DNA of 64,000 nucleotides from Octopus vulgaris. Its lineage: Eukaryota. This document shows positions 4,693 to 43,165 of this stretch, piece after piece. Both the position numbers and the translations under genes were made by a program. Position 1 is the stretch's first letter; the number at the start of each line of letters is the position of its first letter. A model generated the notes under the pieces. The model did no database searches. It was not told the origin of the DNA and saw only the letters and a list, made by a program, of their open reading frames with translations. The stretch is taken from NCBI GenBank assembly GCA_951406725.2, contig OX597823.1, forward strand, positions 88,784,001 to 88,848,000, given 5' to 3'.

Positions 4693-5819
4693 ATATTAAT
4701 GATAAAATAAATGATAATTTATGCCTAATACCTCACCGAGTCAATATACTATACACTGCGTTTTAATTGATTAATCTATCTCCAAAATTATTAGTAATAC
4801 GTGTATATATGTTATTGCTTTAATACAATTGAAGCTAAAACAGTTTTAAAGATAAAACAGTTCCATTAATTTGCAGTTATTATTTCAAAGTTTACTGTCG
4901 TCTACCTTTGTGAATAGGATACAGTTTGCCAGGGTGACTTTACCTTGTATTTCATGAAAACGAAGTTTAAATGGTAAGACCCACCATGCAGTGGAGTATA
5001 CGGTTGTCTCACATATGCGTTCTCTCCCAAACACATTCTAACATATTCGTACACGCACACTCAGATAAGATACACATATACGAACACATACAGAGTCAGA
5101 CACATACACAGAAGCACAAACGCTTATTCCGAACGCATCCATTCATTATACTTTTCGAAAGAGAAAAATTTAAGAACACTTATCAATCATAGTCATCTTC
5201 CCCGAAGCTATAATAAATGTTATGTCATATAAGAATTTATTCATCACAATACAAAGCTATTGGAACCTACGCAAGGTAAAGAAAATATGAAACGGTGGCA
5301 GAATTTTCTTATAACTCAATATCGACAGACATATTTGATTATTGTTGAAGTTTGAAAGTTCTACAATACTGACACATTAAACACATTGGATTATCATTAT
5401 AATAGATATTGGCAATTAAAGATAGATGTGCGGTATATAAGACGTATTATTGCAGAACTTGAATTAGTATAAATGATTTAAACCGCGAAATCAATATCAT
5501 GCTGCCAGGTTTGAAATGTATTCTACTCTGAAAACTGTTGCTTTTCTTGACGAAAGAAAAAAAACTGAAAGAACAGTTACTCCGCATTCAACTGCTATAT
5601 TAATCAAATATGAATGACACGAATACCTGTAGTACCAAAATGACACTGTAAGAGCATATTCTTTATTCATTTATTTATTTATTGGTCATTGAGATAATCA
5701 CTTCCAACGCCTTTTCTAAAAACTAGGAAAATATTCCATTATTTGTAGCTTTCCCTGACACATTCACTGCTTCTTCCATCATCCAGTGCGTTTTATTGCA
5801 ATTATTATTGGATATGATA

Positions 5820-30534: not shown

Positions 30535-30538
<4 letters not shown>

Positions 30539-31915
30539 GAATATTATAGACGAGTTAGATCAATACTAAAAACAGAGCTCAATGCTAAAAACAAGATAAT
30601 AGGTATCAACACTTTAGCTGTCCCAGTTATAAGTTACAGCTACAATATCCTTAACTGGACACGAAATGAACTGTCCAAAATAGATAGGAAAACAAGAAAA
30701 ATACTGACAGGATCTAGGATGCATCACCCAAAATCTGACATAGAAAGACTATATATACAACGTATAGAAGGTGGTAGAGGCCTTATACAGCTGGAAAACT
30801 ACTATAAAATAACCACCATAGGACTGCAAAAACACCTACTTCAGAAGGAAGGAAAACTGATCCAGATAGCAGCAAAACACGAGCAAAACAAAAAACTGTT
30901 CTCAGTATTTAAGGAAGCTGACAAATACAAACAAGAAATCATACCCCTAATAAACACAAAGAAGAAGAAGAAGATGATGAAGAAACAACAAAAGCTATAA
31001 AACAAATGAAATCCAAACTAAAAATAGAACAGCAACGAGCCATGATAAAACGATGGCAAGAAAAACCCCTTCATGGTAAATACTGCACTAAACTAAACGC
31101 AAAAAAAATAGACAAAGAAAAATCCCAGCAATGGTTGAGAAGCTCAGGACTCAAAGCAGAAACAGAGGGATTTTTAATTGCAGCACAAGACCAAAGCCTC
31201 CCCACCAGAAATTACCAAAAACATGTAATGAAAAGAAATATTACAAGTAACTGCAGAATATGTGGAGATGGACAAGAAACAATAAATCATATTATCTCTA
31301 GCTGCCCAGTCCTGGCTAAGAAGGAATATGTTCACAGACATGACAGAGTTGGAACCTACATACATTGGAAGCTATGCCAACATTATGGAATAACAACAGA
31401 AAAAAGATGGTATAGGCACACACCAGAAAAGGTCACAGAAAACAAGAAAGCAACCATACTCTGGGATATGCCGATACACACAGATAGAGAAATTAAGGCC
31501 AACAGACCAGATATAGTTGTCAGAGATCATGAAGAAAAAAAATGCTTTCTAATTGATGTATCAATACCGGCAGATGACAACGTGTCCCTAAAAGAGGTGG
31601 AGAAACTCTCAAAATACAAAGACCTGGAAATAGAGGTAACTAGAATGTGGAACCTGAAAACAGAAACAATTCCTATCATAGTAGGTGCATTAGGCATGAT
31701 AAAAAAATATTCAGACAAATACATAACAAAAACACCAGGACTTACAAACACATATAACATACAGAAAATTGCACTACTAGGCACTGCACACATCCTACGC
31801 AGAACACTTTCCATACAATAACCATCAGAGCATCACAACAAATCACAGCACATACCCAAGGCACACAGAGCTGCGCTCGGTAGTGAAGTGAAAGCACGCT
31901 ATAAAAATAAAACTA

Positions 31916-32536: not shown

Positions 32537-33790
32537 GGATCTTTTCTAAAAGATGGACAGAATTTTCTACTTAACTAAATAATTTGAAACTTCGTATACT
32601 GGTAGAATGTCAAAAGAAAACATTAATTTCAATTATTTTTTTTGAGAAAAATGTATTTTGTAACTTTTACGTAGTTTAATTCTTCGAATTTTAACCAATC
32701 ATATTCTGGTAGAATGTGTCAAAAGAAAACATTAATTTCAATTAGTTTTTTTGAGAAAAATGTATTTTGTAACTTTTACGTAGTTTAATTCTTCAAATTT
32801 TAACCAATCATATTCTGGTAGAATGTGTCAAAAGAAAACATTAATTTCAATTAGTTTTTTTGAGAAAAATGTATTTTGTAACTTTTACGTAGTTTAATTC
32901 TTCGAATTTTAACCAATCATATTCTGGTAGAATGTGTCAAAAGAAAACATTAATTTCAATTAGTTTTTTTGAGAAAAATGTATTTTGTAACTTTTACGTA
33001 GTTTAATTCTTCGAATTTTAACCAATCGTATTCTGGTAGAATGTGTCAAAAGAAAACATTAATTTCAATTAGTTTTTTTGAGAAAAATGTATTTTGTAAC
33101 TTTTACGTAGTTTAATACTTCGAATTTTAAGCAATCGTATTCTCTGTTTTGAGCTCAATTCATATCTGCCGTGTTATTCATCCTTATCACTGTCTTCTGT
33201 TTTCTGTCTTCAAAGGCTTCTCGCATGTTTATTTCAATGTCATCCCTGACTTACGGAACGATTACCTGTGTGTGTGTTTTTGTTGTGTATGTGTGTCCGT
33301 GTGTGTGTTTGTTGTGTGTGTGTTATTGTTGTGTATGTGTGTGTGTGTTTTTTTGTTGTGTATGTGTGTGTTTGTTGTGTGTGTTATTGTTGTGTATGTG
33401 TGTGTGTTTTTGTTGTGTATGTGTGCGTGTGTGTGTGTGTTATTGTTGTGTATGTGTGTGTGTGTTTTTGTTGTGTATGTGTGCATGTGTTGTGTATCTC
33501 TTAAATCGATGAATTTTGTCGCCCAATAAAAATATTAGCGATATCAAAGTTAAAAAAATATCGTTAATATTTTTATTGGGCGACGAAATTCATCGATTTA
33601 AGAGATACAGAACACACGCACACATACACAACAAAAAAAACACACAACACACACACGCAACAATAACACACACACACACACACATACACATACACAACAA
33701 ACACACACACACACAACAAACACACACACGCGGATCTTTTCTAAAAGATGGACAGAATTTTCTACTTAACTAAATAATTTGAAAAGATCC
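32537..33790. mobile_element. non-autonomous TIR element, Merlin-like
   Basis: Termini ggatcttttc / gaaaagatcc; 8-bp TSD gctatttt at 32529-32536 and 33791-33798. Confidence 0.75.
32599..33142. repeat. about 109-bp tandem repeat, five copies, inside the MITE
   Basis: ctggtagaatgtgtcaaaagaaaacattaatttc...ttaaccaatcatatt repeated. Confidence 0.93.
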
Positions 33791-35929: not shown

Positions 35930-36380
35930 AAAGTTACCTAACACAAGCCCAAATACGCTCAACAACAACACTGAAGCCGTCAGTAAAAATTGCGGAAGAC
36001 CCGACTGTGGGATATGCGTCAATTTAATTGAGGGATCAGAGTTCTCCTTCAAACAGGAACAACATTTCACAGGGAAAAGCAGCTTCTCATGTGCTTCGGT
36101 GAACCTGATATACGCACTAACCTGCTTTCAAGACCAATATATAGCCTAAACAAAAAACAGTCTTCGTCAAATGATGGCTCTGCACAGATCCCAGATAAAA
36201 ATTCCGAAACACAGAAAAATACCATTCGGCCAATATATCGACATTTGCGCCAATAGCAAAAATCCAAGCTTCAGAATTTTTCCCCTCTATCAAATCATGG
36301 AGGATACAACCTGTAGCCAACGAATTAGTAAAGGGTCGTTCTTTATCACGAAATACAGACCCATTTTGAACGCATCTACA
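35930..36380 (+). mobile_element. Penelope-like element GIY-YIG endonuclease fragment
   Basis: [17 protein letters not shown]...[15 protein letters not shown]...QYI...LHRSQIKIPKHRKIPFGQYIDICA...FRIFPLYQ...FFITKYRPILN (frameshifted). Confidence 0.85.
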
Positions 36381-38369: not shown

Positions 38370-38383
38370 TATATATATGTTTG

Positions 38384-38414
<31 letters not shown>

Positions 38415-38929
38415 TCAATATAGGGTGGCAAAAAAAATTTTGTAGAATTCTTTTGCCACCAGCGGCCTAGTGGGAAAAAATTAAATAGTCATAAACCATT
38501 TTTACGTTCAACATCACAATCAAGGAACGGCCATAATAGGCCATTCACCCACTAGAAATAACAGCCAAAAGCTTTAACCGCAAAATAACATTAATTCCGT
38601 AAACCAGGAGAAAATTGAAAAACATTTACCCTGTAATTTCTTAGACGATGCACCGTTTCATCTACCGTTTAATGGTAAACTAACCTGATTAAATTAAATC
38701 AAGCCAATCCACCATAGGCTGGTGGCAAAAGAATTCTACAAAATTTTTTTTGCCACCCTATATTGATTAATTATGAATTTTCTGGTTAGTTCCGTAATGG
38801 AATCGGTGGCTTATATTTATTTGCTGCCGATAAATTTGGCGCGAGTGCGACGATTTGATAATTTTAGGTCAGATATTGCCGAGGTAGCAAGAGGAATGCC
38901 TCGTGAAAAATATCTGTTCCGACTTGGCT

Positions 38930-39036
38930 ATTTCTTACTGATGAGTCTAAGGGCCTATGGTGGATTGGCTTGATTTAATTTAATCAGGTTAGTTTACCAT
39001 TAAACGGTAGATGAAACGGTGCATCGTCTAAGAAAT
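38930..39036 (+). ncRNA. type I hammerhead ribozyme, copy 1
   Basis: atttctta-CTGATGA-gtcta-[hairpin]-tagat-GAAA-cggtgcatcg-TC-taagaaat; predicted cleavage after C39028. Confidence 0.88.
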
Positions 39037-39420
39037 TACAGGGTAAATGTTTTTCAATTTTCTCCTGGTTTACGGAATTAATGTTATTTTGCGGTTAAAG
39101 CTTTTGGCTGTTATTTCTAGTGGGTGAATGGCCTATTATGGCCGTTCCTTGATTGTGATGTTGAACGTAAAAATGGTTTATGACTATTTAATTTTTTCCC
39201 ACTAGGCCGCTGGTGGCAAAAGAATTCTACAAAATTTTTTTTGCCACCCTATATTGATTAATTATGAATTTTCTGGTTAGTTCCGTAATGGAATCGGTGG
39301 CTTATATTTATTTGCTGCCGATAAATTTGGCGCGAGTGCGACGATTTGATAATTTTAGGTCAGATATTGCCGAGGTAGCAAGAGGAATGCCTCGTGAAAA
39401 ATATCTGTTCCGACTTGGCT

Positions 39421-39527
39421 ATTTCTTACTGATGAGTCTAAGGGCCTATGGTGGATTGGCTTGATTTAATTTAATCAGGTTAGTTTACCATTAAACGGTA
39501 GATGAAACGGTGCATCGTCTAAGAAAT
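39421..39527 (+). ncRNA. type I hammerhead ribozyme, copy 2
   Basis: Identical to copy 1; predicted cleavage after C39519. Confidence 0.88.
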
Positions 39528-39911
39528 TACAGGGTAAATGTTTTTCAATTTTCTCCTGGTTTACGGAATTAATGTTATTTTGCGGTTAAAGCTTTTGGCT
39601 GTTATTTCTAGTGGGTGAATGGCCTATTATGGCCGTTCCTTGATTGTGATGTTGAACGTAAAAATGGTTTATGACTATTTAATTTTTTCCCACTAGGCCG
39701 CTGGTGGCAAAAGAATTCTACAAAATTTTTTTTGCCACCCTATATTGATTAATTATGAATTTTCTGGTTAGTTCCGTAATGGAATCGGTGGCTTATATTT
39801 ATTTGCTGCCGATAAATTTGGCGCGAGTGCGACGATTTGAAAATTTTAGGTCAGATATTGCCGAGGTAGCAAGAGGAATGCCTCGTGAAAAATATCTGTT
39901 CCGACTTGGCT

Positions 39912-40018
39912 ATTTCTTACTGATGAGTCTAAGGGCCTATGGTGGATTGGCTTGATTTAATTTAATCAGGTTAGTTTACCATTAAACGGTAGATGAAACG
40001 GTGCATCGTCTAAGAAAT
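39912..40018 (+). ncRNA. type I hammerhead ribozyme, copy 3
   Basis: Identical to copy 1; predicted cleavage after C40010. Confidence 0.88.
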
Positions 40019-40136
40019 TACAGGGTAAATGTTTTTCAATTTTCTCCTGGTTTACGGAATTAATGTTATTTTGCGGTTAAAGATTTTGGCTGTTATTTCT
40101 AGTGGGTGAATGGCCTATTATGGCCGTTCCTTGATT

Positions 40137-40200
<64 letters not shown>

Positions 40201-40582: not shown

Positions 40583-43165
<2,583 letters not shown>

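What the first reader, a model, noticed from the sequence alone, without database searches (positions are those of the whole stretch)
38719..40140. 491-nt tandem monomers each carrying a complete type I hammerhead ribozyme: candidate retrozyme or viroid-like circRNA element
Seen: three identical motifs exactly 491 bp apart, each with stem I atttctta/taagaaat (8 bp, perfect), core CUGAUGA, stem II gtcta/tagat, GAAA, stem III cggtgcatcg and a GUC triplet. I see only two substitutions between units (near 39841 and 40083). Established: tandem type I hammerhead repeats define non-LTR retrozymes and Penelope pseudo-LTRs, and their transcripts self-cleave into monomers that can circularise. Inference: a plus-strand transcript would release two exact 491-nt monomers (39029-39519 and 39520-40010). 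This would be a young, non-coding, self-processing family with a monomer longer than typical animal retrozymes, probably mobilised by PLE RT.
Basis: partly seen in the sequence, partly recalled or inferred. Interest (0 to 1): 0.92.

Follow-up and report, generated by a model that had tools for sequence, protein, structure and literature searches.

The report
Octopus retrozyme with Penelope insertion footprint
This is one of several hundred young copies of a non-coding octopus repeat carrying a predicted self-cutting hammerhead RNA (a retrozyme, a known kind), and its insertions have two opposite arms ending at two fixed points inside TA repeats, which suggests that a Penelope-type enzyme likely copies both arms from one RNA, probably a circle.

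Summary
The insertion is 38407-40141: a 313-nt inverted arm plus the 491-nt array (three intact type I hammerheads), with (TA)n on both sides. It belongs to a young dispersed non-coding family: 987 exact hammerhead 24-mers, about 350 loci by extrapolation. Older sister families share the layout. The host is Octopus vulgaris or very close.

Arms end at two fixed sites, +131 and +237 from the predicted cut. Of 57 two-armed insertions, 49 have one end of each kind, none has two alike, and 8 are unclassifiable. This is the Penelope-like-element (PLE) tail, here 106 nt against the usual 30-40. Both arms of a locus carry the same variant (17 of 18, against 40 of 359 cross-locus pairs), and 104 of 112 within-locus differences are private to one unit.

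Best reading: a non-LTR retrozyme copied twice from one RNA, probably circular, by a PLE RT. A very active 1312-aa PLE is a weakly supported partner. Cleavage, expression and circularity are untested, and 491 nt is within the published size range. The scan noted a similar TA-targeted, hammerhead-less array in another genome.

The parts
38370..38406 (.). (TA)n target, left flank
38407..38719 (-). Inverted, 5'-truncated arm (monomer positions 416-491 then 1-237), ending at the outer fixed end E2 (+237); carries only the 3' part of a hammerhead
   Evidence: 100% complementary over 313 nt; mapped on the monomer
38407..38512 (-). 106-nt 'tail' (monomer 132-237), present at this end of the insertion only
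   Evidence: (I1 vs I7)
38718..38719 (.). 5'-to-5' junction of the two arms, 2-nt overlap
38718..40141 (+). Direct arm, 2.9 units of 491 nt, from monomer position 181 to the inner fixed end E1 (+131)
38930..39036 (+). Type I hammerhead 1; predicted cut after C39028
39029..39519 (+). Monomer 1 (491 nt, 37% GC; circular fold -145.1 kcal/mol, z -6.0 against 60 shuffles; longest ATG frame 66 aa, not kept in sister families)
39126..39147 (+). Conserved 8-bp hairpin just before E1; it contains ATG 39138-39140, positioned like the start codon of the 1312-aa PLE (inferred relic / RT recognition site)
39212..39248 (+). Conserved hairpin just before E2
   Evidence: compensatory changes in sister families
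39421..39527 (+). Type I hammerhead 2; predicted cut after C39519
39448..39491 (+). 19-bp hairpin inserted in loop II of hammerhead 2 (same in the other two units)
39520..40010 (+). Monomer 2
39912..40018 (+). Type I hammerhead 3; predicted cut after C40010
40142..40172 (.). (TA)n target, right flank, running into (TATG)n

Best explanation
The element is a non-coding tandem repeat family whose two-armed insertions lie in (TA)n and end at two fixed sites 106 nt apart, and it is most likely a retrozyme that borrows a Penelope-like RT/GIY-YIG enzyme: the array would be transcribed, predicted to be cut by its hammerheads into 491-nt monomers that are likely closed into circles, and two enzyme subunits would likely nick both strands of a TA repeat and copy the same RNA from the two start sites. 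SHOWN in the sequence: intact hammerhead motifs, no conserved ORF, dispersed near-identical copies, (TA)n flanks, one +131 and one +237 end per two-armed insertion, both arms the same variant, units differing mostly by private changes. INFERRED: transcription; cleavage (probably as a double hammerhead through the palindromic stem III while the RNA is multimeric, with an alternative fold protecting the monomer); ligation by a host ligase (as for other retrozymes, PMC7229834); target-primed RT from two internal sites (as shown in vitro for the Anolis PLE, PMC11167929); RT running round the template until it drops off; joining of the two 5'-truncated cDNAs head to head. The partner enzyme is not identified; the 1312-aa PLE family is the best lead.
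For: Footprint: 49 of 57 two-armed insertions have one E1 and one E2 end, none E1/E1 or E2/E2, 8 have one unclassifiable end; 48 of 57 have (TA)n on both sides (maps). The same rule holds for an intact-ORF PLE of this genome: 8 of 8 two-armed loci seen, ends about +125 and +183. Published PLE insertions have an inverted 5' copy and a one-sided tail, and the tail equals the distance between two RT start sites. One template: arms of a locus differ by 0.46% (286/61,734) and units within an arm by 0.37% (400/108,772), against a median of 1.4% between loci. 17 of 18 same-locus arm pairs are within 0.7%, against 40 of 359 cross-locus pairs (C1 set). In 8 of 45 two-armed loci neither arm contains the other, so there neither was copied from the other. 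Uniform template: of 112 within-locus variants in 28 loci, 104 are private to one unit, 6 are shared within an arm and 2 across arms. Arms cross the cut site repeatedly, up to 18.3 units. Structure: plus-strand circular fold z -6.0, weaker on the minus strand; compensatory and one-sided changes in hammerhead and end hairpins across sister families; 245 of 246 hammerheads found by a pattern anchored on stem I, GAAR and GU keep CUGANGA. Partner lead: of five young PLE families, only the 1312-aa family resembles the E1 end (0, 3 and 1 of 300 shuffles reach the score for families A, B, C), at a similar distance from its own hammerhead-like motif; 6,718 exact end motifs.
Against: No experiment and no raw RNA reads: cleavage, expression and circles are not shown. 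The active monomer fold (-30.0) is less stable than an inactive alternative (-34.2), and the alignment consensus also chooses the inactive pairing. In the one PLE reconstituted in vitro, hammerhead cleavage was not needed and uncleaved RNA was the main substrate; 8 of 9 Xenopus retrozyme dimers did not cleave. A young, uniform linear multimer would leave the same pattern of private variants. The 106-nt tail matches none of the PLE tails measured (about 40, 36-42, 30 and 58 nt). The similarity to the 1312-aa family covers only about 50 nt, and a retrozyme profile found no hit in 17 stretches of that family. One locus (L126) has 1.6-1.8% internal divergence, and a few variants are shared between units.
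Confidence: 0.62

Rival explanations
1. A PLE-mobilised non-autonomous repeat copied from uncleaved linear multimeric transcripts; the hammerhead is a passenger or only trims 5' ends, and no circle is used as template.
For: Hammerhead cleavage was dispensable and unprocessed RNA was the main substrate for the Anolis PLE in vitro. The inactive fold is favoured in the monomer. The footprint proves the enzyme type, not the template's topology. Arm lengths are mostly short (medians 632 and 712 nt).
Against: 5'-truncating linear copying should shorten arrays each generation, yet arms of 5-18 units occur. Unit-specific variants almost never recur across arms (2 of 112). The core and whole-monomer structure are kept across families 55-73% identical.
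Confidence: 0.25
2. The arrays are stuttered pLTR/tail fragments of an autonomous PLE that I did not sample, not a self-standing retrozyme family.
For: Same two-armed, TA-targeted, tailed layout as autonomous PLEs. Only a small part of the PLE candidates was scored (150 of 6,136 GIY-YIG candidates; 73 of 31,093). Other scan notes found this outcome for similar-looking arrays (unchecked).
Against: No PLE ORF continues into any arm in the family-A/D, B/C or E stretches examined; neighbouring PLEs are separate insertions. Arms extend 5' only into more monomer. The unit has stayed a colinear 457-495-nt non-coding monomer through several waves. The frame at the ATG-like site stops within 4-17 codons in all seven representatives.
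Confidence: 0.08
3. Satellite DNA spread or lengthened by DNA-level processes (unequal crossing-over, extrachromosomal circles), or an assembly artefact.
For: Tandem arrays can expand locally (proposed in the 2026 preprint); the 18-unit array might include such growth.
Against: Hundreds of dispersed loci with fixed 3' ends, variable 5' ends, inverted arms and TA targets; strand-asymmetric RNA structure; words of the unit are held in runs of 8 studies.
Confidence: 0.05

Closest known systems
Metazoan non-LTR retrozymes (Cervera and de la Pena 2020, PMC7229834; read: abstract in listing, section 14, find-passages)
   Same: Tandem low-GC non-coding units, each with a canonical type I hammerhead; self-paired circular fold; co-existence with PLEs; mollusc precedent (mussel, 350-390 bp).
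   Different: Monomer 491 nt against 170-400. Loop II carries a 19-bp hairpin. The find-search of that paper gave 0 occurrences of 'inverted', 'microsatellite' and 'cephalopod', so the two-armed TA-targeted footprint is not described in its main text; supplements not read. Expression and circles are shown there, not here.
Animal retrozymes as non-autonomous PLE derivatives (Li, Clavereau, Pollet 2026, bioRxiv 10.64898/2026.07.22.740005; read: parts 1-3 of 5, main text through discussion; supplements closed)
   Same: Same conclusion on PLE dependence; 491 nt is within their 51-972 bp range; arrays mostly of few units.
   Different: Their evidence is co-occurrence and pLTR similarity in vertebrates (no mollusc sampled), and they leave the mechanism open. 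Here the evidence is insertion anatomy, and there is almost no sequence similarity to sampled pLTRs.
EN+ Penelope-like elements: tandem/inverted insertions with one-sided tail (Craig et al. 2021, 10.1101/2021.04.23.441226, passages; Frangieh et al. 2024, PMC11167929, parts 1-2 of 4)
   Same: Inverted 5'-truncated arm, tail at one end only, AT-rich/(TA)n target, two fixed 3' ends downstream of a hammerhead.
   Different: No ORF; tail 106 nt instead of 30-40; arms are head-to-tail repeats of one short monomer; canonical rather than minimal hammerhead (minimal form: PMC4209133, part 1 of 4 read).
Hammerhead viroids / viroid-like satellite RNAs (recalled; only search listings seen)
   Same: Small, self-paired, hammerhead-bearing unit that could circularise.
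   Different: Genome-encoded in hundreds of insertions; no hammerhead on the minus strand; 62% paired and branched rather than rod-like; no evidence of RNA-RNA replication.

Membership tests
Non-LTR retrozyme | Tandem units, each with a complete type I hammerhead (at least two consecutive) | tested here: met
   Three motifs 491 nt apart; 245 of 246 pattern-anchored cores intact
Non-LTR retrozyme | Non-coding | tested here: met
   Longest ATG frame 66 aa in A, 9-47 aa in seven relatives, not shared
Non-LTR retrozyme | Dispersed multi-copy family, GC below 50%, no LTR-framed body | tested here: met
   987 exact 24-mers, control 0; GC 37%; arms consist of monomer only. PBS/PPT were not searched for separately
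Non-LTR retrozyme | Monomer size | tested here: met
   491 nt: outside 170-400, inside 51-972
Non-LTR retrozyme | Self-paired monomer structure | tested here: met
   z -6.0, 62% paired; z -4.9 to -11.7 in families A-D with only 12 shuffles each, -0.9 and -3.3 in old family E
Non-LTR retrozyme | Target-site duplication larger than 4 bp, when present | tested here: inconclusive
   Both flanks are (TA)n, which hides any duplication
Non-LTR retrozyme | Self-cleavage in vitro | not testable with these tools
   Only folding energies: active -30.0, inactive -34.2, stem III duplex -17.5 kcal/mol
Non-LTR retrozyme | Expressed as linear and circular monomer RNA | not testable with these tools
   Only contigs were available; a circle junction is identical to the genomic tandem junction
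EN+ Penelope-like element (autonomous) | RT plus GIY-YIG ORF | tested here: not met
   No ORF inside any insertion examined
EN+ Penelope-like element (autonomous) | Inverted 5' copy and one-sided tail | tested here: met
   49 of 57 two-armed insertions have one end of each kind; tail 106 nt
EN+ Penelope-like element (autonomous) | AT-rich / (TA)n target | tested here: met
   48 of 57 two-armed insertions have (TA)n on both sides
EN+ Penelope-like element (autonomous) | Unit is the pLTR of an autonomous family | tested here: inconclusive
   Not so for five young families; most PLE candidates were not scored
Hammerhead viroid / viroid-like RNA | Ribozyme on both polarities and no genomic DNA counterpart (recalled definition) | tested here: not met
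   No minus-strand motif; hundreds of genomic insertions

The most novel reading that the evidence does not exclude
The octopus genome records in DNA how an animal retrozyme is inserted: a dimeric Penelope-type RT loads twice on one 491-nt RNA circle, at hairpin-marked sites 106 nt apart, primes from both strands of a TA repeat and rolls round the circle, giving two head-to-head multimeric arms. The 1312-aa PLE family supplies the enzyme, and the retrozyme has kept only a ~50-nt mimic of that family's start-codon region over a long-lived lineage.
Probability: 0.35. Interest if true: 0.78.

Novelty: new member of a known kind. Interest (0 to 1): 0.55.

Why it matters
How animal retrozymes get back into genomes, and with which enzyme, is left open in both the 2020 paper and the 2026 preprint. 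This family shows a strict Penelope-type footprint on a retrozyme and evidence that both arms come from one uniform template. It also names two start sites and a candidate enzyme with many intact copies. That makes rolling-circle, twin-primed reverse transcription directly testable in the published in vitro PLE assay. It also stretches the PLE tail to 106 nt. I found no description of an octopus retrozyme in six searches, and a 2026 O. vulgaris repeat annotation has 0 occurrences of 'ribozyme' or 'retrozyme' in its main text. Repbase/Dfam and subscription journals were not searchable. The class itself is known, so this is a mechanistically useful member and not a new kind of element.

Tried and rejected
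Expression: no RNA holder listed on record. Four runs guessed to be RNA hold the unit as contigs, which show presence only and cannot show strand, ends, level or circularity. A comparison of retrozyme and PLE depth in RNA-like and DNA-like runs was not obtained, so expression stays open.

Partner search:
- L190 first looked like an autonomous PLE with this hammerhead in its 3' UTR. It proved to be a separate two-armed PLE with a retrozyme in the TA run after it.
- L067, L043, L042 and L073 were likewise separate neighbours. With 31,093 PLE first-look candidates, such adjacency is about what chance gives.
- The 781-aa, 811-aa, L118-type and L042-type families show no end similarity (z at most 0.1).
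- A degenerate pattern for a closer partner gave 25 matches: retrozyme subfamilies, short 1312-type ends and a few unexplained, with no intact closer family. That pattern was built from both sequences, so it is not independent support.
- Pfam found no family in the 1312-aa protein; it is called a PLE from weak tblastn similarity to the Pfam-confirmed PLEs, its motifs and its insertion layout. Its clade was not determined.

Chimeric arms from two families: rejected for L143 (1.5 kb apart); undecided for L145 (divergent arm, possibly noisy assembly).

RT stops at the cut site: 13 of 114 5' ends were scored within 12 nt of it, but 8 are at position 1 and none was scored at 458-491, where BLAST misses short pieces. 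No clear excess; not resolved.

Alignment A1 had badly chosen windows and was not used; replace it. The sigma-70 scan is irrelevant to a eukaryote. No tRNA gene in the window. The sequence look-up in earlier findings was empty.

Full report
Observation. The array is real: 38718-40141, period 491, 2.9 copies, with two mismatches. Each unit has a type I hammerhead (C17 at 39028, 39519, 40010); none of 5000 shuffles gave a hit, and there is no minus-strand motif. Rfam finds nothing at gathering score and RF00163 at 22 bits, E 0.031. Stem II (5 bp) carries a 57-nt insert with a 19-bp hairpin. Stem III is a palindrome that can pair with a second copy over 12 bp (-17.5 kcal/mol), while the isolated motif is predicted to prefer an inactive fold (-34.2 against -30.0). 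The monomer folds as a circle at -145.1 kcal/mol, z -6.0, against -91.2 for the minus strand.

38407-38719 is an inverted arm, 100% complementary over 313 nt. The whole insertion is 38407-40141, with (TA)n on both sides. Counting from the predicted cut, the direct arm ends at +131 and the inverted arm at +237.

The family. The genome is 2.8 Gb, and a retroelement protein from it is 99% identical to an Octopus vulgaris protein. A 24-nt hammerhead word occurs 987 times, control 0. The 98 matches listed on contig C1 fall into 35 loci by my grouping, which extrapolates to about 350 loci. A looser 18-nt word occurs 2,288 times, control 0. Among 117 distinct monomers, 107 cluster with the window's unit and 10 form four sister clusters of 474-476 nt at 71-73% identity. 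An older family of about 470 nt (55-56% identical, short stem II) is colinear over the whole unit. Sister families end at about +126-136 and +225-239. Hairpins in loop II and before both ends are kept through one-sided and some two-sided changes (5 of 33 and 4 of 37 predicted pairs with double changes; few independent lineages). No reading frame is shared.

Insertion footprint. I scored 87 insertions from 87 fetched stretches: 40 chosen as best matches to the window, 30 from the complete C1 list, 16 from the looser list, and the window itself; clusters running off a stretch were dropped. 57 are two-armed, always diverging from a 5'-to-5' junction: 49 have one +131 and one +237 end, none has two alike, and 8 have one unclassifiable end. 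48 of 57 have (TA)n on both sides. 30 look one-armed (18 ending at +237, 12 at +131), and some of these show a remnant of the other end. Published PLE insertions have an inverted 5' copy and a 30-40-bp tail at one end, and in vitro the tail is the distance between two internal RT start sites of a PLE that cuts and extends both strands and is predicted to be a dimer. Autonomous PLEs of this genome follow the same rule (8 of 8 two-armed loci of the 1312-aa family; L190). I therefore read +131 and +237 as RT start sites and the 106 nt between them as an unusually long tail.

One template per insertion. Units within an arm differ by 0.37%, the two arms of a locus by 0.46%, and loci by a median 1.4% (up to 4-10% for rarer subfamilies) (five stretches with two insertions or duplicate coverage left out). 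On C1, 17 of 18 same-locus arm pairs are within 0.7%, against 40 of 359 cross-locus pairs (three irregular loci left out). Of 112 within-locus variants in 28 multi-unit loci, 104 are private to one unit, 6 are shared within an arm and 2 across arms. In 8 of 45 two-armed loci neither arm contains the other. Arms have medians of 632 and 712 nt and reach 18.3 units. This fits two RTs copying one uniform RNA through the cut site many times, most simply a circle. A uniform uncleaved multimer is not excluded, and the in vitro PLE preferred uncleaved RNA.

Partner. Five young PLE families with long open frames were examined. None carries the unit as its pLTR, and PLEs found beside retrozymes are separate insertions. 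Only the 1312-aa family resembles the last 60 nt before +131 (0, 3 and 1 of 300 shuffles for families A, B, C; z at most 0.1 for the other four). Its inner end lies about 125 nt after its own hammerhead-like motif and 24 nt after its start codon. The retrozyme has an ATG 22 nt before +131 in A, reading MAVP then stop, against MTIPK. The family has 6,718 exact end motifs. Against this: its tail is 58 nt, not 106; a profile search found no wider similarity; and most PLE candidates were never scored. I put this partner at about one in three to one in two.

Expression could not be judged: no listed holder is on record as RNA, and only contigs were laid.

Comparison. The element meets the testable features of a non-LTR retrozyme (PMC7229834; bioRxiv 10.64898/2026.07.22.740005) and works like a PLE passenger; it is neither an autonomous PLE nor a viroid. 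Its size is unremarkable. Both retrozyme papers name PLEs as the likely mobiliser and leave the mechanism open. I found no octopus retrozyme and no description of this footprint on a retrozyme in six searches or in the passages read; unread supplements of these papers, and Repbase/Dfam, may bear on that. An unchecked scan note describes a similar TA-targeted array without a hammerhead in another genome.

Verdict: a new member of a known kind, with unusually clear mechanistic footprints; interest 0.55.

Noticed in passing
G000:C10:17474891-17483867 (L035/L036): One arm of 18.3 units (8,977 bp), ending at +131 in (TA)n, with units 0.4% apart: either a very long reverse-transcription product or local expansion.
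   Followed up: partly
L150:2780-3120 and L203-L232: Older ~470-nt retrozyme family (3,171 first-look candidates; copies mostly 78-88% identical to the query), short stem II, same two-end geometry.
   Followed up: partly
L074:428-1021, L078:~40-170, L079:90-574, L109:~2054, L150:2200-2480, L152:~5200-5700: Several further unrelated type I hammerhead families with long stem-II inserts, some in short palindromic TA-flanked insertions; not classified as retrozyme or pLTR.
   Followed up: no
L101-L116 (e.g. L114:818-4521): Young 781-aa RT/GIY-YIG PLE preceded by an overlapping 479-aa frame in another phase (possible ORF1 with frameshift, unusual for EN+ PLEs by my recall); atypical hammerhead-like motif; ~40-nt tail.
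   Followed up: partly
L310:2763-6698: 1312-aa PLE-type ORF with a long Asn-rich insert and no Pfam match; at least 106 copies 98-100% identical over the C-terminal 390 aa; homologues at 25-50% in many unnamed contigs.
   Followed up: partly
L233-L262: 811-aa PLE family with dozens of 99-100% identical open copies, ends about +142 and +184 from its hammerhead-like motif.
   Followed up: partly
L145:1830-2481: Two-armed insertion whose right arm is only 68-77% like the family yet ends at +131: chimera of two templates or noisy assembly.
   Followed up: partly
window 35970-36374: Fragment of a PLE GIY-YIG domain about 2 kb upstream of the retrozyme; separate insertion.
   Followed up: partly
window 30536-31821 and 40681-42816 (minus): Frames that look like non-LTR retrotransposon fragments (restriction-like endonuclease type; RTE/APE type), named from recall and not searched.
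   Followed up: no
window 32595-33143: 109-nt tandem array, 5.1 copies, 97% matches; not examined.
   Followed up: no
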